Positions 1,220 through 55,506 of a DNA stretch of 64,000 nt are shown here, piece after piece (position 1 is the first letter of the stretch; each line of letters opens with the position of its first letter). The notes beneath the pieces were generated by a model. The model made no database searches. It was not told the origin of the DNA and saw only the letters and a program-made list of their open reading frames with translations. The position numbers and the translations under genes are program-made. Source of the DNA: a phage; sequence record NC_094493.1; one strand, given 5' to 3'.

Positions 1220-2965
1220 ATGGCGCAAGACATGACAAGCTTTGAGCAGGCGGTAGATCAAGTAATTGTTGATTCTGAACGTTTGCACCTGATTGTCAAC
1301 GGTAACGCTGTGGATGAAGTTGTCGTAGAGGATGGGACCACCATCCCTACGGTACGAAAAGCCATGCTTGACACCCTTTATTTTAAAACGCCACCGATCC
1401 CTTGGGCGTATGGTGCATCCACAACAGTTTTTAACCAGCTGTATGAGTTTAAAGGGGATACAGGCCCTCAGTGGTGGTACGCTCCCGCAGCATCAAAATC
1501 TAACCCGGTTAGAATGCCAGCAGATCCTTCACAATCTCCAAACTGGAGATTATACACCGACTCTGCAGTAATGGCAAAATACTACGCAAAACTTAACAGC
1601 CCAAGGTTCGAAGGTGACCCGCGAGTACCTACACCTCCAATGGACGATAAGTCAGAGTCCATAGCAAACACAGAATTTGTTGTTGACTATGTTGATAGCA
1701 TATTTGAAGCCATGGAGGGGATGAAAGTTACTGTAGGGTCTTTGGTGGTAAAAGGTCTTACAGAACTCGCCAACACCATAGTTGGGGGCACCCTTACCTT
1801 ACATGGACCTGTTAATGGAGCAGATTCTACTGCACGCTTCAGGAACCTAATCCTCACGGCAAATACTTCTACACTTACTTTTGCGTGGAGCGATCCTAAG
1901 CATACAGACTGGAGAAGCACAGAGCTGCAACCTCATGAAGTGTCCACCCACAGGGTTATAGCTGACACTATAACTTCTGGGAAACCAGTGGCTAATAATA
2001 ACGATGTACATTTTGATGGTCTGGGTAATAACTTTTTTGACTACGTGTACATTCGTGGTAATGCCATGAAGGCAGCAACCGAACCGACATTGCAGGTCGA
2101 TGGGACCACCAGGGTTAAGAACCTTGAGGTGACAGGTACCGTTACAGGGATAACCTACTCTGTCGATGGCACCATGATCTACCCTAGCTATATTGAAAGC
2201 ACGGGTGATGCATTGATAAATGGCGATTTGGAGGTTGGCGGGTCTGTAGTTATTCGAGGTACAGCCTCTATCCAAAATATAGCTCTGAATACTCTAAGAG
2301 TCAATGAGCGTGCAACTTTTGAAGGAGAAGGGCTTACAGCTAATAAAGGTACAATTACCGAGCTGACAACCACCACTTTAACTGCAACAACTGCAAACTC
2401 TGAAAACTGCAACGTTACCAGAAACTTGCAGGTAAATGGAGATGTTAGTTTAAACGCAGCAGGGACGGGAACCACCTACCTTCACAACCTTGAAATATCC
2501 GGCACAGTGACTGGGTGGCTGCCAGACTTCTCTAATGTCAACTTTGTTTGTAATGGCATCAACTCCAGTGGTAAGATAACCACCTCTCAAGAAATTGAGG
2601 CGGGTAAAACCATTACTGCCCCTACTTTCCACGCAGGAAAGGTAGATTTTGATTTAGAGGAGGTTGACGCGTCCAGTGGGACATGGACACCTAACGGACA
2701 GGCCAGTATGTATGTTGTCCACGCTAAAGGGGATTTTACAATAGGTCAGTGGCCTGGGACATCAGCGGAAGATAAACCTTATCCATTCACTGCAGTTATC
2801 TATGTAATTCAGGATGCTGTAGGTCACAACGTGACTTTGCACGATAAGTATGCTATCCTGTCGGCAACACCTGTTATTAACAACAAGGCTAACAGTGTTA
2901 CCCTGCTGCAATTAACATATTGTGGTGTTGGTGATATCGTAGACGTAGTAATTGCACAACGTTAA
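1220..2965 (+). CDS. tail fibre-like protein
   Basis: 581-aa ORF with AAGGAG RBS; T/G/N/V-rich with reiterated TLT/TGT-type beta-strand motifs typical of fibre proteins; product is inferred. Confidence 0.6.
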   Translation: MAQDMTSFEQAVDQVIVDSERLHLIVNGNAVDEVVVEDGTTIPTVRKAMLDTLYFKTPPIPWAYGASTTVFNQLYEFKGDTGPQWWYAPAASKSNPVRMPADPSQSPNWRLYTDSAVMAKYYAKLNSPRFEGDPRVPTPPMDDKSESIANTEFVVDYVDSIFEAMEGMKVTVGSLVVKGLTELANTIVGGTLTLHGPVNGADSTARFRNLILTANTSTLTFAWSDPKHTDWRSTELQPHEVSTHRVIADTITSGKPVANNNDVHFDGLGNNFFDYVYIRGNAMKAATEPTLQVDGTTRVKNLEVTGTVTGITYSVDGTMIYPSYIESTGDALINGDLEVGGSVVIRGTASIQNIALNTLRVNERATFEGEGLTANKGTITELTTTTLTATTANSENCNVTRNLQVNGDVSLNAAGTGTTYLHNLEISGTVTGWLPDFSNVNFVCNGINSSGKITTSQEIEAGKTITAPTFHAGKVDFDLEEVDASSGTWTPNGQASMYVVHAKGDFTIGQWPGTSAEDKPYPFTAVIYVIQDAVGHNVTLHDKYAILSATPVINNKANSVTLLQLTYCGVGDIVDVVIAQR

Positions 2966-2972
2966 TATATCT

Positions 2973-2999
2973 AACCGCTCCTGACGGGGCGGTTTTCTT
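2973..2999 (+). terminator. putative intrinsic terminator
   Basis: GC hairpin CCGCTCC/GGGGCGG followed by TTTTCTT, immediately after the stop at 2965. Confidence 0.5.
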
Positions 3000-3013
3000 A
3001 TCTGGAGAACACA

Positions 3014-6000
3014 ATGCTTCCAATCCCTTTGCTAAAACTTGGTCGTCATTTCCTCGATAAGAGGGGTGGAATTAAGGAACTTGCTGTTCTGTCATACCCA
3101 ATAGACAACAGTGATGGTACAAGCAACACAGTATCCTATGTAAATAGCTTAGCTATACTTTTTGATGATGGTCAGCTTAATATTACTGGCTATAATAGGT
3201 TCGGAGAGTGTCGGACTGGAGATCTTGATACAATAAACTATCCTAATGAGGCAGCTTGGAACGTAGACCATGTTTGGAGAGCTGACCGTGCATTTGTAAT
3301 CCGCACATTCGATAATAAATTTTTCTATATTGGTTGCACAGCTGGTCTTATCGGATCGGAGGCAGCAGGTGGAAACGATGTTTGTGTCAGAGAGTGGACA
3401 CCTTTGCCGGAACAGATCGTAACAGGGTTGCATTTGGACACCCATCCTGAGAGACTTGTTGAAGTAATGGGTGGCGTAAACAATACAGTGTGGGTAATTG
3501 CTGCACCAGAGGCTGATGGTATGCTTCACCTGTACGGCTCTGGCAACAATACTTACGGCTCTCTTCATGTTGACAAAAATCAGCATGCAACCCCTGTAAA
3601 GATTGGTGAGACATCGGAAAATCCTGAAACAGGTCCTTGGAAAAACCCAAGCATCAACTGCGAGGTGCATGACAACTCTGTTATTTTCGGTGGTCCTAGA
3701 GGTTTCTGGATTGCTGGATACGACTTTCTGAGAAATAACAGTAGAAACGACCTTGTTTGGCCTCCTGTGCAGATTACTCGTAACGATTTGAGGGGCATTC
3801 CTGCAGATGAGGAGTGGAAAGGGTTTATGTGCGGTCCTAACGGGGCAATAATTGCCACACAGAGGATGCATAGACCCGATGACCAGCAGCTTGTTAACGT
3901 ATTTTATGGTCAAAACATTTGGGGAGATGATACATGGCGGGAACTGAATATCACCTACACCCATGAGGTAATAATGGCTCGTGGGTACGGCACAAGTGGC
4001 ATTTTCTTCAATAATGGCACCAAGCAGTATCGTGGATTCTCTCGCAACTTGTGTAATGATATTGGTGCACAATCTGCAAACAATAGTCCTAGGTCCGATT
4101 TTATCCACTATCAAGCTCTTGCTACAGCTAAATATGTTGAGCAACGCCTGCCAGTTAGCTGGACAGAGAGTGTTTATTTCCAAGGCATCCATAGAGAAGG
4201 TTTCTTAGGGACCTTTACTGTTGTTAATGGTAAACTTTGGTGGTCAGGCATCCCAAGGGGAAGTTTTGCAGGCTCTAACAACCTGTTTGGAGGCAGACTT
4301 AATAGCCAGGGGTTCACAGAGATTCCGGAGAATTGGTATAAAAATGTCCCGGTAGATAGCTGGGGTATCGAAGACATCTTTGATGTCAATGGTGTGAGCA
4401 ATGTTAGCAACATTTACATCGGAGATACTGTCAAGATGAAATTGAAACCTCAGCCGGAGGGTGCTACGTTCATTATTGACAAGATTGAGTTGGTAAATGC
4501 TACAGGCACTGTTGTTACAGATGCAAACTATCAGTTCTCCACTAACTGGAACCATGGTGGTGCTAACGAAGTTGTGGTCACCCAGTATAACCGTAACATC
4601 AACAGACGTGGTTTGTATTCTATCAAGATCACCTACCATGACAAGCATGGCACTGGAAGAACCTATACGACAAGGACTTTGAACTGGAACACTATAGTTC
4701 CTGCGTATCCGTCCAACGGCAAGTGGCATACCGTTGGTAGAAACAAGCAGTTCCATGTTAACGATACTGTATACTTTGGGCTGAATGGGACCCAGCCTGC
4801 AGTAGAAGGGGATACATCGTATATGGTCAGACTCCACAGAATGGATGCTGGATCAGTCACTTATGATGTGACCCAAGAGATCTACGATCAAAGACGCGCC
4901 ACGTATGACAATATTGTAAAAACACAAGCCTTGTGGGAGTTCAATCCTAATGGCAAGGGTGGTAAAATGTTGCAGGTTAATGAGCAGAACGGAACGTCGT
5001 TGACTGTCCACGAACACCAAGACCCTTGGCCTGATCCTGGAAAACCTCACCCTGGCGCTCGTACACTGAAAATTGTCAGCCATGATGTAGGATATTTCGG
5101 AATACGCTGGGAAGCTACAGTAAGATATGCCGACGGGACAACAAACAACATAGGGATCACTCTTGGTGGCACTAGTGAGGATAACTCACTGAAAATTGCC
5201 TACACTCCTAGAGGCATCTCTATTGACAATATGGATGTTGTTCGCAACGGTTACGGCGATGTGAATGTCAAAGTTACTCTTGGCGAACATCTTGGTGGGG
5301 AAAGGATCATCATGTATGCCTTTGATCATGATCCGCGCACCAATGGGACTTATGCAAATCAGGCATGGAGTTACCTGATAAATGCACCTGAGCCAAATAC
5401 TAAAGAGTTCTACTATGGTATGAAGCGAGATGTGTGCAAGAAAACAGGAACACATGATTGGATTGCTATCTGCGTTAAAGATGAGCGCACAGCTTGGGAT
5501 GAGCCTGTTAACAGATGGTTCATAGGTATTCCTACCAGAAGTGATAAGTATGTCGCAGAATATATTGTATGCATGGGCGGTACCAACCTAAACATGTGTT
5601 GGAACGAAGATGTAAACAAATACTCTGATTATGACTATATGAGGGATTACTCTTGTAATTTGTGGTTTAACCAAACTACAGGTTACCCTCCGCGTCAGGC
5701 AAGGGTAAATCCTGCAATCTTTACAGATACGCAGGTTTTCTTGACAAAACAGGCCAACGAGGTCCAGACCTTCAAGAACAAATACGACCCTAATAAGTGG
5801 TTCTATAACTGCTATGGGGCATTTTTCTGGGGACCTGGAGAATTACCTGGTGGTGGCTCTTGTTTTGAGGCTGCAACTTACGCCAGTGACAGATTTATGG
5901 GCCAGGTCAAGAAATACAAGATAATTCCAGGGCCTGAAACTTTAGGTAACGCTGTCGACCCCTATATCATCATGAGTGATCTAAGATCGAACATGGATGG

Positions 6001-30782: not shown

Positions 30783-33206
30783 ATGAGTATGTGGTCTTTC
30801 GATCTGGAGGCCTCCGGGCTTTTGGAAGATCTAGATCTTTATTATCACTGCGGTCTGTTTAAAGAGCTGAATAAGAACCGTTTTATGCTGTTCCTTCCTC
30901 TAAATGACCGCACACACTACTCCGAGGAGGATATAGAGAAGGCTAAGAACTTTATTCTGGCAAAGAAAACTCTTTATAAAGATTTTGAAGTTCGCATAGC
31001 AGATTTTTCGGAGTTGGAAGGTTGGCTTACAGGCAATTCCGACTGGTCACCAACAGCTTTGAACTGCCATAACTGCTACAGTTATGACTTTATGCTGATG
31101 GAAAGATTATCCGGTATTCATTTTGACATGTTCCGTGATCCTAAATGCATGGGTACTATCAACGACCACCAGGTTAACCTGTTTGATACGTTGGCGATGA
31201 GTCGAATCTTGTGGCCTGATCGCCCTTTACCAAAAGGTTGTCCGGACTCTGTATTCAACCCGGTCACTAAGAAAATGCAGCCTGTTGGTCCTCACGGCCT
31301 TATGGCATGGGGCTATGCTCTTGGTAACCAGAAAGTTCAAATTGATGACTGGCGCGATCTTCCGTTGTGGAAGTATGTGGATCGTGTATTTGAGGACGTT
31401 ATCATCCAGGAGCTGCTCTGGAAAGAACTGGTAGCGGAATCAAAAGGTGTATTCTACGGCAAGTCTGACATGCAGAACTTTATGTACGATCCTGCCAAAG
31501 AGAAGCCGAAAGGGTTCAAGAAGATCACCTGGAAGAACGCATTACGCCGAGGCATGCTGCAGCACTTCCTGATGGAGCTGCAGGCCCGTCAGGGTGTGTA
31601 TTTCGACATAGATGGAGCTATTGCTTTACGTGACCGTTGCGATGCGTGGATGAAAGAAATCGCTGATCGTGTTGAACCACAACTGCCTTTAAAAGAGCTG
31701 TCAATGTCTCAGCGGCCCAAGTTCCCTGAAAAGCCGTTTAACCAAGACGGGACAATCTCTAATAATGGTTGGAAATGGTTAAAAGATAAGCTTGGCTATC
31801 CTGTAGACATGAGCGCTCTAGAGTTCAAAGCCCCGCCTAAGAGAGCATTTACCTCCACAGGAGATGTCAGTAAGATGGGGATAAAATGGTGTGAAGAGAT
31901 GGGCTGCAAAGACCCCGATAAGATGGCTGATTTCTTGAGAGGCTATATTAAGGGCACCTCAACACCACAACCTTTACCTAAAGAGCTAATGGATCAGGCA
32001 ATAAGCGATCTGCAGCAGAAGCGAATGCCTGACTGCAAGATACCTATGAAAATCAGCAATCAGGACGACATTAAGCGATACCTGATCAGTGCTGGTTGGC
32101 TTCCGACAATGTGGAGAACTAAGGATGTAACTAAAGACAGCAAGAAGAAAGCTCTACCTGATGCAGATGTTGATGCACGAGTATATGCATACATGGACGA
32201 GCTTTTAGAGTCAGAGTATTGTGACCTAATTATCAACTTCTGGAACAAAACTGATGCTAAGTTTCAGACAACAGTGCACAAGTTCCGAAGCTTTCCTAAC
32301 TCCGAAAGGATTAAAAAGGAAGTATTCGGGAAAATACGTAGAAAAGCTAGGGCACTTATTACTTCTCCGCAACTGAAAGATACGTTTGGACACCTATGTC
32401 CGAATCTTGAAAAATTGAACGGAGAGATGGCTAAGGATATCGTCTTGTGGTTATCCTTGCGAAACCGCAGATCGGTCCTTGATCCAATCAAGGAGGATAA
32501 GGTTGATACTGGTCTTCTTAATCACCCACGCTTGAAGATTGACCATAAGCTTCCTGCTAAAAGCTCCGGATTAACAAACACTTCCAGACAGAAACACAGC
32601 ATTTGTGCAAACATGCCTAAACCCTCTCCTAAAGTGGTTATGGGTAAGGAGATGCGTAGCTTGTGGGGTGTTCCTCCTGGATACTTTGAGATCGGTATTG
32701 ACGGGTCCAACTTAGAGCAGCTTATCGGGGCTTGGGGTGCCTTTGAGTTCGACAACGGCTTGTATTATGATGTTGTAAGTAACGGGGACGCACACCAAAA
32801 CAATGCTGAGGCATATACAAAAGTAGCAGGCAGAGAGGTGTCTCGTAACGACGGTAAACCTATCACGTATGGGGTTATGTACGGGGCACAAAAAGATAAA
32901 GTTGCAGATATGCTGGACATCTCTCCAGAGTTGGGACAAAGGGTAATCGATGCACTCTGGGATGCCAACCCTGGTCTTAAGGGGCGCAAAGAGGATCTGG
33001 AGAAATTCTGGGAAGCAACAGGTAAGAAGTTTATCTACTCTTTTGATGGTCATGCTATCTGGACCCGATCTAAACACTCTTTACTTAATGCATACCAACA
33101 GAATGGTGGTGCATCGCTGTGTGACTTGGTTGGGATACTTATGCACCACCAAATGGTGAAGCGTGGGTGGTACGATGAAGGTGTTCGTCGTATTATTTAT
33201 TACCAT
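30783..33206 (+). CDS. family A (T7-like) DNA polymerase, exon 1
   Basis: 3'-5' exonuclease Exo I FDLEASG; motif A IDGSNLEQL; motif B RNDGKPITYGVMYGAQ; reading frame stops 1 codon after ...IIYYH, exactly where motif C (HDE) should continue. Confidence 0.85.
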
Positions 33207-33482
33207 AAATAACATTGTGGCTTCATAGAGTAATCTATGTCGAATAACCTCTTTAACTGCGGGAAGCCTAAACCTTATGGCAAGGTAATCCGCAACGAAG
33301 CGCTCAAAAGAGCGAACGCTCAGAGGCCATTCCGAAAGGAAGTAGACCAGCAAGTGCGGTCGAAATGGGAGGATTCCTGTGGTTGCTTATCATAGGAATA
33401 TGAGATGGTCCGATCCTACGTGAAAACGTATGGCTATGCACGTAATGGTGCGGGGTAGCTTAACGACCTACCTGAACTATTG
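33207..33482 (+). ncRNA. putative group I self-splicing intron (no ORF) interrupting the DNA polymerase
   Basis: 276 nt between ...YYH and DEYQLQV...; 5' exon ends in U and intervening sequence ends in G; P-like AACTGCGGGAAG (33255), Q-like AATCCGCAACG (33287), R-like GTAGACCAG (33342) and S-like GAGATGGTCC (33402) elements; candidate guide GTGG at 33217. Confidence 0.7.
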
Positions 33483-33836
33483 GATGAGTACCAACTTCAA
33501 GTGCCTGACACACCGAAGTATAAGACTGTGTACACCTTCGACACAATTGAAGAACTGGAAGCATTTAAGGCAGAGCAGGAAGCCAAACTTCATGTGTTCG
33601 ACGGTCATAAGTACAAAAAGGCACGCAAGGATGAGGACGGAAACGAAGTGGTTGACAGAGACGGAAACACGGTGTACGATCCTATCCTGAACGATAACGG
33701 AAAGCTTGAACTTATCTGGAGCCCTGTGGGTGAAATGGTGGTGCATTGCTTCTGGCAAGCTTCTAAAATGATGGGAGTCCCGTTCCAGATCACAGGTGAA
33801 TACTTGTGTGGTAGTAACTGGGGTGATTGTCACTAA
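33483..33836 (+). CDS. family A DNA polymerase, exon 2 (motif C to C-terminus)
   Basis: Begins DEYQLQV (completing H|DE motif C) and ends ...GSNWGDCH with a C-terminal His as in T7 gp5 (from memory); no RBS or ATG of its own. Confidence 0.75.
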   Translation, partial: DEYQLQVPDTPKYKTVYTFDTIEELEAFKAEQEAKLHVFDGHKYKKARKDEDGNEVVDRDGNTVYDPILNDNGKLELIWSPVGEMVVHCFWQASKMMGVPFQITGEYLCGSNWGDCH

Positions 33837-52382: not shown

Positions 52383-52802
52383 ATGAACATTAAATCTGAT
52401 AATCCGGCATATAGCTTTGATAACGCTTTTTGTCACGGTCCGGCGGCGAAAGGATTCGAAATCGATGGTAAACTAGTTATTGTTAATGTTGACGGGGAAG
52501 AGGTTGCAGTATATCCGGTGGCAGACGTTAAAAGCCGTCTACAATGCCGCATGGATGTTACCGCCTATCAGCTTGATCCGGTCCGGGTAGTTGCCCTGGT
52601 CCTGGAAGAAGAAATTAAAGCAATGCACCACAGCAACAAGTTTATTGGTGACGCTCAAGATAATATGCAGGTATGCCGCTATAAAGTTAATGAAGTGCTT
52701 AAAGAGTACGGCTATAAGGATTTAATGATCAAGCGTGATGAAAAATTCCGCTACCGTAACGACCTGGCAAATCGGATTTTTGAAATATACGAATCATTAT
52801 AA
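52383..52802 (+). CDS. hypothetical protein (139 aa)
   Basis: ATG after AAGAGGTAAAAACACC; last plus-strand early gene. Confidence 0.6.
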   Translation: MNIKSDNPAYSFDNAFCHGPAAKGFEIDGKLVIVNVDGEEVAVYPVADVKSRLQCRMDVTAYQLDPVRVVALVLEEEIKAMHHSNKFIGDAQDNMQVCRYKVNEVLKEYGYKDLMIKRDEKFRYRNDLANRIFEIYESL

Positions 52803-52821
52803 TTTTTTAACTGAATTATCA

Positions 52822-52846
52822 AGGGGCTTAGGCCCCTTTCTTTTTG
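52822..52846 (+). terminator. intrinsic terminator closing the plus-strand early block
   Basis: AGGGGCttagGCCCCT followed by TTCTTTTTG. Confidence 0.7.
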
Positions 52847-53565
52847 TCTGCTCTTCCCCCTACCATAAACGGCCCTACCTGGCAAGTGGAATAATTGACG
52901 AGCCATCAATCCCACACACTGTACAAATATACATGTAAAATAGCTATTGCATAACCTTTCATTGTGTGGTAGCAGGGCTATTTTTACCCGTTTTCCCTTC
53001 CAAAATTGCACGTAATGCCGCTATTGCACAAATTTTAACCTGATGCACATCTCCAATATCTTGTCAACAACTAAAAATCTTTATAAGTCATACACTTACA
53101 CAACATAGAAAGCGTGTCCTACGCGAAAAATCGAGTATAACTATAGCCGCCAGATCTCAGAATTCACGTACGCACGCCATTCTATAGCCTGCAAAGTATT
53201 TATTCCAACCACAGAATAACGGAATAGTCAATACCTGCATAAAATAATTATTCGTGTAAACTGCATAACATAAATCAGCTCAGGTGTCAACATTTTTCGT
53301 AAACAGTCCGAAATTATCACGATGAGTTATCATAAACAGAGAAATCTTTAGTCGTCTAATGTTTACTGTACATTACTATACTGACTGGAATCATTAGATG
53401 ACTAAGAGAAAGATAAGAAATAATTAATAATGTGATTATTTTACCTGTAACAATAAGGCAACTATGCAAACGAATGGCATGGCGCGACGGAGTCGCGACA
53501 TAATATAAAAGCAGTAACCATCACCCCCGTGATAGTTTGTCTGCAATCTATTAATCAGATCATAG

Positions 53566-53616
53566 TTGCCTTGTATTTAGTTAATCATGACATAACAAGC
53601 AAGGCAACTATAGATC
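53566..53616. repeat. long palindrome in the non-coding convergent zone
   Basis: CATAGTTGCCTTG...CAAGGCAACTATAG inverted repeat (13-bp arms, about 26-nt loop); AAGGCAACTATG also at 53455 and TAGTTGCCCTG at 53624. Confidence 0.5.
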
Positions 53617-55290
53617 TTCTAATAGTTGCCCTGCTTTTATATTATGTCATAGAAACACCCGAAGGGGTGACCAAAGGTCACCTGGCATAGCCAGCGAAAG
53701 ATTATTAACTTGCTAATCGTTATCATGCAAACGAATGGCATGGCTTATAATTTTTGAGCAAATAGTCTATACGTGAACAGTGAGGCATGCAATAGTAACA
53801 ATTGTTATTATATCCAGTGTTTAGTTTGCCCAGTGTGTCACTATTATGTCATATTATGTCACAGTATGTCAGACAAGTTTTTCTCCTCTTTGTCAAGTGC
53901 TGCATGAAAAATTTACAAGCTGGTATGGTAGCATTTTTGCGGTCCTGTTTACATTCAGTAATGTATGTATAATCCTTGTTGTGTGGGCGTTTAGACGTCT
54001 AGACGGTTGGAAGTCCACAGGTCAATATCTAATCTATCGGCTGCTAACTATATCCCACACAAATAGTAAGAAATATGATTGTTATATGCGTAAACAGTAA
54101 CTCATGTTATCAATCCCTGTATGTATCGCCAGTGGTGCGCATAATGGGTATTATGTTAAATTGCCCGTAATGATAATGGTTCTCACAATGATATGTATTC
54201 TCATTCCCCCACACAAAATAGATTGCAAATGTTGTGCCACTATGTGAACGGCCTCACCTATTAATTTGCCTCACTGCCTCGATATTTGAGAATTGTTATA
54301 AGAATGAGAATGATTCCCATTTCGTCCGCCTGGCAGCACTCCTGTAGGACAAGCACAAAATCGTGGCATAGCTGGACCTGTTCAGATATTTCTGGCTGGC
54401 TCTTCAGGTCTGTGTGGGAAAAGCCAACCCCCTCCGGCGGCGGGGAGGGTGTCAATTAAAAAATTTATGGGGTATATGAAGCGCTCTTCAGGTAAGGCAT
54501 GTACTATGGGATGAAACCCTCTTCAGGCAATGATATTTGTGGGTGTGATATTTGCTGGAAAGCCAGATATGACGGGACTCCCGGCGGGGCAGGGGTAGTA
54601 CAGACAGGGAAAATATGGGGATGTAGTTGGGTGAATTGATCGGGCAGGTAGAGTACGGAATATGTTACAAGTATGTTAAATATGGAGGGTGAATATCTGC
54701 AGGATTTGTGTGTAAAATCAAAGACTTAAGTAGTGTTGTGGTATTTTCTATAAATAATTCAAGTTTAATAGGTAATATTTGTCTCTATCCACTTTGTGTG
54801 GTAAACAAATTCAAATGAGATTGGTTTACAAGTGTATACATAATATGCAAATTAAAGATACAAGAAACCCCCCTCCCCCTTCGGCTACCATTCACCTTTT
54901 CCTCTGACTGGTACTTAAACACTTATTCAGACTCTTCAGGTTATCACCCATACACCATATGGCAGTGACTGGTGTCCTCCGGCCCCTCTTTCGTCACCCG
55001 TCCGCTTCGCCATGCTAATGCCATAGCCAAATGTTCGGTTGTTCACCCTGTTCACTCAGGTGTATCTCCATACCCCTTCAAACCGAAGAGAACAGAAAAC
55101 CCGAATTACTCGGTAAAAGAAAAGAGAAGAACTTAATTTTATCAGGATAGGCAAGAATGTCAAGGCATGACTGCTCACTAAACAAGCAAACAGTCATGTG
55201 TGGGAGGTAAGTGATTGTGGTGGTAGGAAATTTAGTTGAAAGATGTGTTATAGGTGCTTCCAGCACTTTAGCCTGGCAGCTAATTGTGTG

Positions 55291-55506
55291 TCAGTCCAGC
55301 GGTTCATCCTCTACTTCACTGAAATCAATGTTCATGGTCTCTTCCCAACCATCGATCTCAGCACAAGAGTGGAGTTCTTTAGGGTTTACTCCCAAAGCCT
55401 CAGCAACAGAGTCTATATTTAACACCTCTGGCAGGTATGATTCATCGAATTCAAGGTAAATCAGGCCACGAGTGTTGTCAACTCCACCAAATATTTCTAT
55501 CTTCAT
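55291..55506 (-). CDS. hypothetical acidic protein
   Basis: ATG at 55506 preceded by AGGAGA; begins MKIEIFGG, the MK[IV][KE][IL] N-terminus seen in several genes of this block; ORF-track start 55572 trimmed. Confidence 0.55.
   Translation of the reverse strand: MKIEIFGGVDNTRGLIYLEFDESYLPEVLNIDSVAEALGVNPKELHSCAEIDGWEETMNIDFSEVEDEPLD

What the first reader, a model, noticed from the sequence alone, without database searches (positions are those of the whole stretch)
52851..55290. 2.4-kb non-coding zone between convergent gene blocks, dense in palindromes and short direct repeats
No credible ORF spans a region far larger than any other intergenic gap here. Both flanking blocks transcribe into it. 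It contains a 13-bp-arm palindrome CATAGTTGCCTTG...CAAGGCAACTATAG (53566..53616) with further AAGGCAACTAT copies at 53455 and 53624. CAAACGAATGGCATGGC occurs twice (53475, 53727). There are tandem hairpins CACCCgaagGGGTG and GGTGACCaaaGGTCACC near 53650, TTATGTCA three times at 53845..53875, CTCTTCAGG four times (54400, 54484, 54519, 54932), and C-rich/G-rich inverted blocks near 54430 and 54860. Candidate roles are replication origin, packaging site or genome terminus, or structured non-coding RNAs.
Basis: seen in the sequence. Interest (0 to 1): 0.65.

Follow-up and report, generated by a model that had tools for sequence, protein, structure and literature searches.

The report
Virion DNA ends of rV5-like phage
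This gene-free stretch is where the linear DNA of an rV5-like coliphage begins and ends: it holds the 459-base repeat found at both tips of the packaged genome plus conserved flanking signals, a layout already reported for this phage group, so the finding is real but largely known.

Summary
The window is a Vequintavirus (rV5-like coliphage). The zone (52803-55290) is truly non-coding: none of its 25 ORFs of at least 30 aa shows third-codon-position bias, while the flanking genes do. It is nevertheless as conserved as the genes around it, or more so.

The zone is the concatemer junction. Window 53872-54330 is the 459-bp direct terminal repeat (DTR) of the virion DNA. At least nine GenBank records start or end exactly at its edges, and three carry it at both ends. 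Two papers report 458/459-bp terminal repeats for this genus. The experimentally mapped DTR edges of Klebsiella phage KPP-1 are homologous to these edges.

The non-coding box (Kropinski 2013) and the DTR (Korf 2019; Dias 2020) are both published, so the core is already known.

I found no published description of three further features:
- a 152-bp T-shaped DNA palindrome (53497-53648) that is invariant within the genus, and whose architecture and position (196-327 bp outside the left DTR edge) recur in four lineages of two subfamilies;
- hypervariable repeat arrays abutting the DTR;
- a conserved sigma-70 promoter (55163-55136, minus strand) reading toward the DTR.

I infer that these act in cis during T7-type end maturation. 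This has not been tested.

The parts
52383..52802 (+). Last gene of the plus-strand block (139 aa, no Pfam domain). It is the gene nearest the right virion end.
   Evidence: Strong third-codon-position bias, p=3e-11. Annotated as a CDS in relatives. About 91% aa identical in Phapecoctavirus, where it also lies next to the terminus.
52821..52838 (+). Intrinsic terminator closing the plus-strand block
   Evidence: 7-bp GC-rich stem plus T-run. Murica annotates a terminator at the same place.
52839..53871 (.). Left flank: unique non-coding DNA just inside the right-hand DTR copy of the virion
   Evidence: No coding signature. Mean pairwise identity 0.90. The island 53041-53150 is still alignable in the divergent relative L010.
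53464..53483 (+). First copy of the 20-nt exact direct repeat ATGCAAACGAATGGCATGGC, which brackets the palindrome
   Evidence: Intact in 13 of 13 relatives.
53497..53648 (.). 152-bp compound (T-shaped) palindrome: an 18-bp perfect outer stem encloses a short hairpin (ATCAC-CCCC-GTGAT) and a long hairpin built from inverted GGCAACTAT copies
   Evidence: z=-8.6 and -8.2 as RNA on the two strands, -8.9 as DNA. 98-100% column identity in 14 genomes. Only 2 G.U in about 60 pairs on either strand. Unique in the window. The same architecture and side occur in L010, KPP-1 and Mt1B1_P17.
53651..53696 (.). Indel segment carrying the two small hairpins CACCCgaagGGGTG and GGTGACCaaaGGTCACC
   Evidence: Absent in 7 of 14 relatives. 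40% gaps in the conservation profile.
53725..53744 (+). Second copy of the 20-nt direct repeat
   Evidence: Intact in 11 of 13 relatives.
53750..53871 (.). Hypervariable short-repeat array abutting the left DTR edge. In this phage the last 30 bp are three 10-bp units (TATTATGTCA, TATTATGTCA, CAGTATGTCA).
   Evidence: Column identity 0.68-0.72 with many indels. Relatives carry other tandem units of 16, 15 and 11 bp. Only the last ..AGTATG.. before the cut is shared across lineages.
53872..54330 (.). 459-bp direct terminal repeat of the virion DNA, present once in the concatemer or circular assembly. Left cut TGTCA|GACAAG, right cut GTCCGCC|TGGCAG.
   Evidence: Record ends of YN3, EdH4 and ECP2309 (both ends) and of ECP2303, Pr121LW and bov10K2/11CS3/22_2/25_3 coincide exactly with these edges. 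Published 458/459-bp terminal repeats. The edges are homologous to the mapped KPP-1 DTR edges. Mean identity 0.94.
54331..54360 (.). Conserved 12 bp outside the right cut (TGGCAGCACTCC), followed by an indel hotspot
   Evidence: Alignment. Relatives have insertions of 12-50 bp right after 54342.
54361..55290 (.). Right flank: unique non-coding DNA just inside the left-hand DTR copy. It contains CTCTTCAGG x4 (54400, 54484, 54519, 54932), GATATTTG x3 and small G/C-rich hairpins.
   Evidence: Mean identity 0.96, higher than the flanking genes. Motif copies are invariant. No coding signature. The island 54511-54609 is conserved in L010.
54850..55200 (.). Near-invariant block B, which is not detectably structured
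   Evidence: 99-100% column identity. Fold z=-1.2 and +0.1. 55034-55147 is 77% identical in L010.
55136..55163 (-). Near-consensus sigma-70 promoter with extended -10 (TTGACA-16-TGaTAAAAT) reading toward the DTR
   Evidence: 11 of 12 hexamer matches. Retained with changed bases in L010 as TTGCAA-17-TGcTATAAT.
55101..55113 (-). Hairpin plus T-run about 15-30 nt downstream of that promoter
   Evidence: L010 has a hairpin plus T-run at the same position with a different sequence.
55291..55506 (-). Last gene of the minus-strand block (71 aa). It is the gene nearest the left virion end.
   Evidence: Third-position bias p=5e-6, intact in 12 of 13 relatives. Annotated in relatives.

Best explanation
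The zone is the concatemer junction of a Vequintavirus, the place where unit genomes are cut out of replicated DNA. SHOWN: window 53872-54330 is the 459-bp direct terminal repeat (DTR) carried at both ends of virion DNA. In the virion the left end therefore reads DTR, then 960 bp of non-coding DNA, then minus-strand small genes transcribed toward that end. The right end reads plus-strand genes, then about 1.07 kb of non-coding DNA (52803-53871, terminator included), then DTR. This explains the apparent convergence and why the expected bidirectional terminator was not found in rV5. SHOWN: the cuts fall in sequences conserved across genera (..AGTATG..|RACA.. and GTCCGYC|TRGCA). The flanks are non-coding yet under purifying selection. 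A T-shaped DNA palindrome lies 196-327 bp outside the left DTR edge in four lineages. INFERRED: maturation is T7-type. Terminase makes two sequence-specific cuts, one at each DTR edge, and the single junction copy of the repeat is duplicated by DNA synthesis. The palindrome, whose outer arms carry the same TATTATGTC motif that abuts the left cut, would act in cis. It could be the docking site for the small terminase subunit. Or it could be the snap-back hairpin that primes synthesis across the repeat, as proposed for the T7 hairpin intermediate. The conserved promoter at 55163-55136 would transcribe across the junction, like T7 phiOR.
For: Identity: the zone matches 121 phage records at 92-97%. 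rV5 has 'no observable ORFs from 104013-106618', between convergent genes 163 and 164.
Termini: YN3's two record ends overlap by window 53872-54330. Nine or more records end exactly on the 459-bp element and three carry it at both ends. [quoted passage not shown]
Cross-genus support: the KPP-1 DTR was mapped by 2x coverage plus PhageTerm as T7-type. It lies in the same kind of gap and its edges are homologous to the window's edges. Mt1B1_P17 has a 328-bp DTR after the same 139-aa gene.
Constraint: identity is 0.90, 0.94 and 0.96 in the three parts of the zone against 0.92 and 0.93 in the flanking genes. There is no codon signature.
Palindrome: z=-8 to -12 in four lineages, on the same side and at a similar distance from the edge, with diverged sequence. 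G.U pairs are rare on both strands. It is unique in the window and absent from E. coli genomes.
Promoter: conserved in L010.
T7 model and hairpin: summarised in PMC4281155.
Against: No sequencing reads of this phage were available, so the termini are inferred from relatives. Some record ends may follow earlier records by convention rather than independent mapping. The rV5 paper, the bov-phage announcement using PhageTerm and the BpE1AUH paper call vequintavirus genomes circularly permuted or headful-packaged. However, version 2 of the bov records starts exactly at the DTR edge. The roles assigned to the palindrome, the motifs and the promoter rest only on position, conservation and analogy. 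Block B and most of the right flank are missing in KPP-1 and Mt1B1_P17, whose equivalent flanks are only about 285-334 bp, so they cannot be universal maturation signals. The inner hairpins of the KPP-1 palindrome are in the opposite order relative to the DTR. The tandem TATTATGTCA copies at the cut are not conserved within the genus.
Confidence: 0.8

Rival explanations
1. One or both flanks are a replication origin. An AT-rich unwinding stretch (about 53200-53450) lies next to iteron-like GGCAACTAT copies and the palindrome. Alternatively, the promoter at 55163 could make a G-rich transcript on the C-rich template (54860-55000) that forms an R-loop and primes DNA synthesis, as at T7 or T4 transcription-dependent origins. 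This could coexist with the terminus function.
For: GC content is 36% at 53001-54000 against about 43% elsewhere. GGCAACTAT occurs 4 times in the zone and nowhere else in the window, and all copies are invariant. The promoter is strong and conserved. The replication module lies in the adjacent plus-strand block. The rV5 authors saw a skew change at 104425-105475.
Against: The skew change coincides with the switch in transcription direction. DnaA boxes are not enriched: one relaxed match in the zone. The GGCAACTAT copies are arranged mainly as the paired arms of the hairpin rather than as a same-sense iteron array. An origin would not need the palindrome's fixed side and distance relative to the DTR edge, seen in four lineages. 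Block B and the promoter are absent from the short equivalent flanks of KPP-1 and Mt1B1_P17.
Confidence: 0.2
2. The conserved blocks encode one or more non-coding RNAs, for example a short transcript from the promoter at 55163 that ends at the 55113-55101 hairpin, or a longer G-rich RNA of about 270 nt. Such RNAs would regulate phage or host functions.
For: The promoter and a downstream hairpin plus T-run are conserved in position in L010 while the hairpin sequence differs. Block B is 99-100% invariant. No protein-coding signature is present.
Against: No Rfam family matches, even at E<=5. Block B folds no better than shuffled sequence. The one strongly structured element is a strand-symmetric Watson-Crick palindrome. 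No transcriptome study of a vequintavirus turned up in the paper library searched.
Confidence: 0.2
3. The palindrome and repeat region is a T5-like injection-stop signal that pauses DNA entry after a first step of transfer.
For: [quoted passage not shown] Vequintaviruses share T5-like hypersensitivity to daunorubicin.
Against: No genes lie between either virion end and the palindrome: only the 459-bp DTR plus 224 bp. A paused first-step DNA would therefore encode nothing. DnaA boxes are not enriched. The DTR is 0.46 kb, not about 10 kb.
Confidence: 0.03
4. The zone is decayed or spacer DNA with no function, and the repeats are neutral debris.
For: Two segments (53650-53700 and 53750-53860) are hypervariable and rich in indels. 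L010 tolerates an HNH endonuclease gene inserted in the zone.
Against: Overall conservation equals or exceeds that of the neighbouring genes, and two blocks are 98-100% invariant. The architecture recurs across two subfamilies.
Confidence: 0.02

Closest known systems
The 'non-coding' box of phage rV5 (Kropinski et al. 2013, PMC3606486) and the 458/459-bp terminal repeats of vequintaviruses EdH4, HdK5 (Korf et al. 2019, PMC6563267) and Gotham (Dias et al. 2020, PMC7471380)
   Same: This is the same locus in the same genus, at 92-97% identity. It has the same gene-free gap between convergent blocks and the same repeat length.
   Different: In the passages I read, none of these papers places the repeat inside the non-coding box. 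The rV5 paper called the genome circularly permuted. None of those passages describes the palindrome, the motif families, the conserved promoter or the conservation level of the flanks.
Bacteriophage T7/T3 concatemer junction (short exact terminal repeat, flanking short-repeat arrays, promoter reading across the junction, hairpin intermediate in repeat duplication)
   Same: Shared features are a short exact DTR with fixed ends, arrays of short repeats abutting the repeat, a promoter directed across the junction, and an inverted repeat able to form a hairpin a few hundred bp outside the repeat. PhageTerm classes the relative KPP-1 as T7-type. The T7 hairpin and duplication model is summarised in PMC4281155.
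   Different: This is a 137-kb myovirus that uses host sigma-70 promoters rather than a phage RNA polymerase. The repeat is 459 bp against 160 bp. There is about 1 kb of conserved non-coding DNA on each side. The palindrome is a large T-shaped element. Details of the T7 arrays and hairpin position come from my recollection of the T7 literature and were not checked here. No functional test exists.
Phage T5 injection-stop signal region
   Same: Both are non-coding stretches near a genome end, dense in direct repeats, inverted repeats and palindromes.
   Different: There are no DnaA boxes, no pre-early genes distal to the element, and the DTR is about 20 times shorter.
Parvovirus (AAV) T-shaped terminal hairpin
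   Same: The topology is the same: an outer stem enclosing two internal hairpins, of similar size (116-206 nt here), made almost entirely of Watson-Crick pairs. It is a natural self-priming structure.
   Different: The element is not at the physical DNA end: it lies 224 bp plus the 459-bp DTR inside. No flip/flop isomers are seen, since all 14 genomes share one orientation. There is no sequence relationship. This is a resemblance of shape only.

Membership tests
Phage genome with short exact direct terminal repeats (T7-type ends) | Virion DNA has fixed ends rather than permuted ones | tested here: met
   Indirect evidence. Nine or more GenBank records from several labs end exactly at 53872 or 54330. 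[quoted passage not shown] Three papers claim permutation instead.
Phage genome with short exact direct terminal repeats (T7-type ends) | The same sequence is present at both ends of the packaged DNA | tested here: met
   YN3, EdH4 and ECP2309 carry the 459-bp element at both record ends. Published lengths are 458 and 459 bp.
Phage genome with short exact direct terminal repeats (T7-type ends) | Two-fold read coverage over the repeat and read-start pile-ups at its edges | not testable with these tools
   No reads were available for this phage. This is reported for the relative KPP-1.
Phage genome with short exact direct terminal repeats (T7-type ends) | Sequence-specific cut sites conserved among relatives | tested here: met
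   Both edges are homologous in the window, KPP-1 and L010. The right edge is also homologous in Mt1B1_P17. Both cuts precede (N)RRCA.
T7-like concatemer-junction accessory elements | Short-repeat arrays flanking the repeat, a promoter reading across the junction, and a hairpin-forming inverted repeat nearby, all required in cis for maturation | tested here: inconclusive
   All three are present as sequence features. The cis requirement cannot be tested in silico.
Headful (pac) packaging with circular permutation | No fixed ends, and terminal redundancy of variable sequence | tested here: not met
   Record ends cluster at two exact positions and an exact 459-bp repeat is present. This contradicts the claims.
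Replication origin (iteron / DnaA-box / AT-rich type) | DnaA boxes or a same-sense iteron array next to an AT-rich unwinding element | tested here: inconclusive
   An AT-rich stretch is present. DnaA boxes are not enriched. The GGCAACTAT copies are mostly paired hairpin arms.
Replication origin (iteron / DnaA-box / AT-rich type) | Copy-number peak or autonomous replication activity | not testable with these tools
   Needs marker-frequency sequencing or origin cloning.
T5-type injection-stop signal | Repeat- and palindrome-rich non-coding DNA with DnaA boxes, placed after pre-early genes inside a long terminal repeat | tested here: not met
   Repeats and palindromes are present. There are no DnaA boxes, no genes between the end and the element, and the DTR is only 459 bp.
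Curated structured RNA families (Rfam 15) | Covariance-model match at or near the gathering score | tested here: not met
   Nothing in the zone reaches gathering score. The best permissive hits have E=1.2-2.8 and lie far below threshold.
Protein-coding gene(s) | Conserved open frame with third-codon-position substitution bias | tested here: not met
   All 25 ORFs give p>0.1, against 5e-6 to 2e-13 for the flanking genes. The small CDSs annotated in PMBT16, FFH2, APCEc02 and Murica are not supported.
Mobile element (MITE-like: terminal inverted repeats plus flanking direct repeat) | Multiple copies, or presence/absence polymorphism, with a target-site duplication adjacent to the inverted repeats | tested here: not met
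   There is a single copy in the window and none in 5,426 E. coli genomes. It is present in all 14 relatives. The 20-nt direct repeats lie 13 and 76 nt away from the arms.

The most novel reading that the evidence does not exclude
The T-shaped DNA palindrome, conserved in architecture, side and distance (196-327 bp outside one DTR edge) across Vequintavirinae and Stephanstirmvirinae, is the long-sought cis element that regenerates the second copy of a short terminal repeat. After a terminase nick it would snap back and prime synthesis across the repeat. It would also share its recognition motif (TATTATGTC) with the cut site. That would give a general, testable mechanism for DTR duplication in large myoviruses.
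Probability: 0.3. Interest if true: 0.6.

Novelty: already known. Interest (0 to 1): 0.33.

Why it matters
Knowing that the gap is the genome terminus has three practical consequences. It corrects annotation: spurious small CDSs and 'circularly permuted' labels in many vequintavirus records. It explains the apparent convergent transcription and why the expected terminator was not found in rV5. It also tells phage engineers where the true ends and packaging signals lie in a group widely used for E. coli O157 biocontrol and in the BASEL collection. [quoted passage not shown] The conserved palindrome, the cut-site motifs and the promoter found here are concrete cis elements that could be mutated to address that question in a tractable E. 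coli phage.

Tried and rejected
- Rfam at gathering and permissive thresholds found nothing in the zone, and there are no tRNAs.
- Protein-coding reading: rejected by the codon-position test. A 'structural protein' of 44 aa in APCEc02 and small CDSs in PMBT16, FFH2 and Murica are not supported.
- Structured RNA in invariant block B: it folds no better than shuffles.
- RNA role for the palindrome: disfavoured, because both strands fold equally well and G.U pairs are rare.
- DnaA boxes and the T5-type stop signal: not enriched, and there are no distal genes.
- MITE or host-derived element: single copy, with no E. coli match.
- The CM1 '600-bp insertion with two CDSs': it is a second tandem copy of about 61 bp plus the DTR.
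- IMG/VR gave only three relatives, so GenBank records were used instead.
- Within the genus the key blocks are too invariant for covariation statistics. Structure conservation was therefore judged across four diverged lineages rather than with a covariance model.
- I found no open-access primary description of the T7 hairpin intermediate, only a secondary summary. No vequintavirus transcriptome study turned up.
Full report
IDENTITY OF THE WINDOW. The zone matches 121 phage records at 92-97% identity, and almost all are Vequintavirus (rV5-like coliphages of about 137 kb). The plus-strand block that runs into the zone is the replication module: PIF1 helicase, DnaB-like primase-helicase, family A DNA polymerase and a DNA methylase. 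It is followed by many small genes. The minus-strand block consists of small genes.

CHECK OF THE OBSERVATION. The last plus-strand gene ends at 52802 and is followed by a good intrinsic terminator at 52821-52838. The last minus-strand gene ends at 55291. Most annotators leave the interval blank. A few fill it with tiny hypothetical CDSs.

The mechanical absence of ORFs is not very discriminating in a region of tiny genes, so I used an evolutionary test. In an alignment of 14 vequintaviruses, none of the 25 zone ORFs of at least 30 aa shows third-codon-position bias (all p>0.1) and many are interrupted in relatives. Five of the six flanking control ORFs give p=5e-6 to 2e-13. The zone is therefore truly non-coding.

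The zone is also conserved. Mean pairwise identity is 0.90 (52851-53871), 0.94 (53872-54330) and 0.96 (54331-55290), against 0.92 and 0.93 for the flanking genes. Two blocks are 98-100% invariant: 53450-53650 and 54850-55200.

- TATTATGT: 6 copies in the zone, 1 in the other 61.5 kb.
- GGCAACTAT: 4 against 0.
- CTCTTCAGG: 4 against 1.
- CCCACACA: 6 against 8.
- GTRAACAG: 5 of the 9 window copies are in the zone, where 0.3 would be expected.

WHAT IT IS. Several GenBank records start or end inside the zone, and always at the same two points. In window orientation, phage YN3 begins at 53872 (GACAAGTTTTTC...) and ends at 54330 (...CATTTCGTCCGCC), so both record ends carry window 53872-54330. Searching with that 459-bp element shows three records carrying it at both ends: EdH4, ECP2309 and YN3. 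Six further records start or end exactly on it: ECP2303, Pr121LW and four bov phages.

The literature agrees. [quoted passage not shown] So the zone is the concatemer junction: about 1.07 kb of right-end non-coding DNA (52803-53871), the single junction copy of the DTR, and 0.96 kb of left-end non-coding DNA. The 'convergent' blocks are simply transcribed outward toward the two virion ends.

INDEPENDENT CROSS-LINEAGE SUPPORT. Klebsiella phage KPP-1 (genus Mydovirus) has a 514-bp DTR mapped by two-fold coverage and PhageTerm and classed as T7-type (PMC9862379). That DTR lies in the same kind of convergent gap of about 1.8 kb. Read in reverse, its edges are homologous to the window's:
- Left edge, window: AGTATGTCA|GACAAGTTTTTCTCCTCTTTGTCAAG
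- Left edge, KPP-1: GAGTATGTATTGCTA|AACACAATTCTCTCTCCTTGTCAAG
- Right edge, window: CGTCCGCC|TGGCAGCAC
- Right edge, KPP-1: TGTCCGTC|TAGCACCGC

A divergent IMG/VR relative (L010) keeps the same left-edge motif. Its alignable islands include one that ends exactly at the right edge, window 54273-54331.

In Phapecoctavirus Mt1B1_P17 (subfamily Stephanstirmvirinae) the record ends share a 328-bp exact repeat. That repeat lies 916 bp downstream of a 91%-identical copy of the same 139-aa terminal gene. In all lineages both cuts precede (N)RRCA. This is suggestive only, because the motif is short.

ANATOMY OF THE FLANKS.

(a) Palindrome. Positions 53497-53648 form a 152-bp compound palindrome. An 18-bp perfect outer stem (GACATAATATAAAAGCAG / CTGCTTTTATATTATGTC) encloses a short hairpin (ATCAC-CCCC-GTGAT) and a long hairpin built from inverted GGCAACTAT copies. 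A 20-nt exact direct repeat brackets the whole element.
- It folds far better than shuffles on both strands: z=-8.6 and -8.2 as RNA, -8.9 as DNA.
- It has only 2 G.U in about 60 pairs on either strand.
- It is the only spaced inverted repeat of its class in the 64-kb window.
- It has no match in 5,426 E. coli genomes.
- It is invariant in 14 genomes.

The same architecture recurs in the other three lineages: a perfect 15-21-bp outer stem enclosing two inner hairpins, on the same side of the DTR, ending 196-327 bp before the left edge. The z-scores are -7.7 for L010, -11.7 for KPP-1 and -8.0 for Mt1B1_P17, although the sequences have diverged. In the window and in L010 the outer arms begin with GACATAATA/TATTATGTC. 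In the window, that same motif is tandemly repeated in 10-bp phase right up to the left cut.

(b) Edges of the DTR. The DNA immediately outside both DTR edges is hypervariable. To the left there are arrays of short tandem units that differ between genomes. To the right there is a 12-50-bp indel hotspot after 12 conserved bases.

(c) Right flank. It carries invariant CTCTTCAGG and GATATTTG copies and the invariant but unstructured block B. It also carries a near-consensus extended -10 sigma-70 promoter on the minus strand (55163-55136) reading toward the DTR. In L010 that promoter is kept with different bases, and a hairpin plus T-run follows at the same position with a different sequence. The extra length of the L010 zone is an inserted HNH homing-endonuclease gene.

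MECHANISM (INFERRED). The best-supported reading is T7-type maturation. Replication gives concatemers with one repeat per junction. Terminase makes sequence-specific cuts at the two edges. The repeat is duplicated by DNA synthesis (model summarised in PMC4281155).

The palindrome has a fixed side and distance relative to the cut. It has Watson-Crick symmetry, and it shares a motif with the cut site. These features favour a cis role in this process over an origin or an RNA. It could be a terminase docking site or a snap-back primer for synthesis across the repeat.

The promoter reading across the junction parallels T7 phiOR, and the flanking short-repeat arrays parallel those next to the T7 repeat. 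Both parallels rest on my recollection of the T7 literature and were not tested here.

None of these functional assignments has been tested. Block B and the promoter are missing from the short equivalent flanks of KPP-1 and Mt1B1_P17, so they are lineage-specific extras. They could be a small RNA gene or an origin element.

RIVALS.
- Origin. An AT-rich stretch and iteron-like repeats are present. DnaA boxes are not enriched, the skew signal is confounded, and the repeats are mostly hairpin arms.
- ncRNA. There is no Rfam match, and only the promoter-proximal hairpin has comparative support.
- T5-like injection stop. The sequence style is similar (PMC13250531), but no genes lie distal to the element.
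- Junk DNA. Excluded by the conservation.

CONFLICTING LITERATURE. rV5 (2013), the bov phages (PhageTerm, 2021) and BpE1AUH (2026) were described as circularly permuted or headful-packaged. The exact repeat, the identical record ends from several laboratories (including version 2 of the bov records) and the homology to the mapped KPP-1 edges argue that these were mis-assignments. Reads of this particular phage were not available to me.

NOVELTY AND VERDICT. The gene-free box and the 458/459-bp terminal repeat are both published for this genus, and many database records already start at the repeat, so the core of the finding is already known. The conserved T-shaped palindrome, the conserved cut-site sequences, the hypervariable edges and the junction-directed promoter appear undescribed: literature searches and the passages read found nothing. 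[quoted passage not shown] Interest is modest.

Noticed in passing
window 33197-33432 (plus flanks 30783-33836): A group I intron (Rfam RF00028, 64.7 bits) abuts the end of the family A DNA polymerase ORF. Among vequintaviruses it is a presence/absence polymorphism. About 58 of 128 records have it. Murica, DrSchubert, CarlMeissner and nom lack it. ECML-10, A135 and C7 have an insert about 600 bp longer, possibly an intron carrying an ORF.
   Followed up: partly
GenBank MG0656xx records (matches to window 52851-55290 and 52383-52802): Nineteen unannotated 'UNVERIFIED Campylobacter phage' records are vequintaviruses. The window's closest relative in this zone is 'Campylobacter phage C2' (97.3% DNA identity, 100% for the 139-aa protein). 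The host label looks doubtful for coliphage-like genomes.
   Followed up: no
L003 (Shigella phage CM1, MK962749) about 2750-3950; probably also I29 (ON286975): The 600-bp 'insertion' in CM1, annotated with two CDSs, is a second tandem copy of about 61 bp of upstream sequence plus the whole DTR. It is either an assembly artefact of the terminal repeat or a real product of aberrant end processing.
   Followed up: partly
L010 8716-9486: An HNH homing-endonuclease gene (PHROG 99, E=2e-46; Pfam HNH_3) is inserted in the otherwise non-coding right flank of a divergent relative. The flank therefore tolerates insertions between its conserved islands.
   Followed up: yes
window 52383-52802: The 139-aa terminal gene has no Pfam domain (Murica notes a 'Rel homology domain'). 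It is shared at about 91% aa identity with Phapecoctavirus phages of another subfamily, far above the genome-wide similarity, and it sits next to the terminus in both. This suggests exchange or co-inheritance of the end module.
   Followed up: partly
window 52911, 52963, 53980, 54054, 54208, 54411, 54795, 55197: CCCACACA/TGTGTGGG-type motifs recur in both orientations across the zone, including three inside the DTR (6 copies in the zone against 8 in the other 61.5 kb). Five of the eight 7-mer (CCACACA) copies are intact in at least 11 of 13 relatives. No known binding protein comes to mind.
   Followed up: partly
window 53299, 53773, 53945, 54090, 55048: GTRAACAG occurs 5 times in the zone out of 9 in the window (expected 0.3). 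Copies lie in opposite orientation on the two sides of the DTR and as an inverted pair inside it. A tandem GTGAACA-GG-GTGAACA at 55040-55055 is conserved in L010.
   Followed up: partly
literature (PMC13250531): Vequintaviruses (Bas48-59) are reported to be highly sensitive to the DNA intercalator daunorubicin, like T5-like phages whose block occurs at an early DNA-entry step. Whether the palindrome-rich terminus region contributes is unknown.
   Followed up: no
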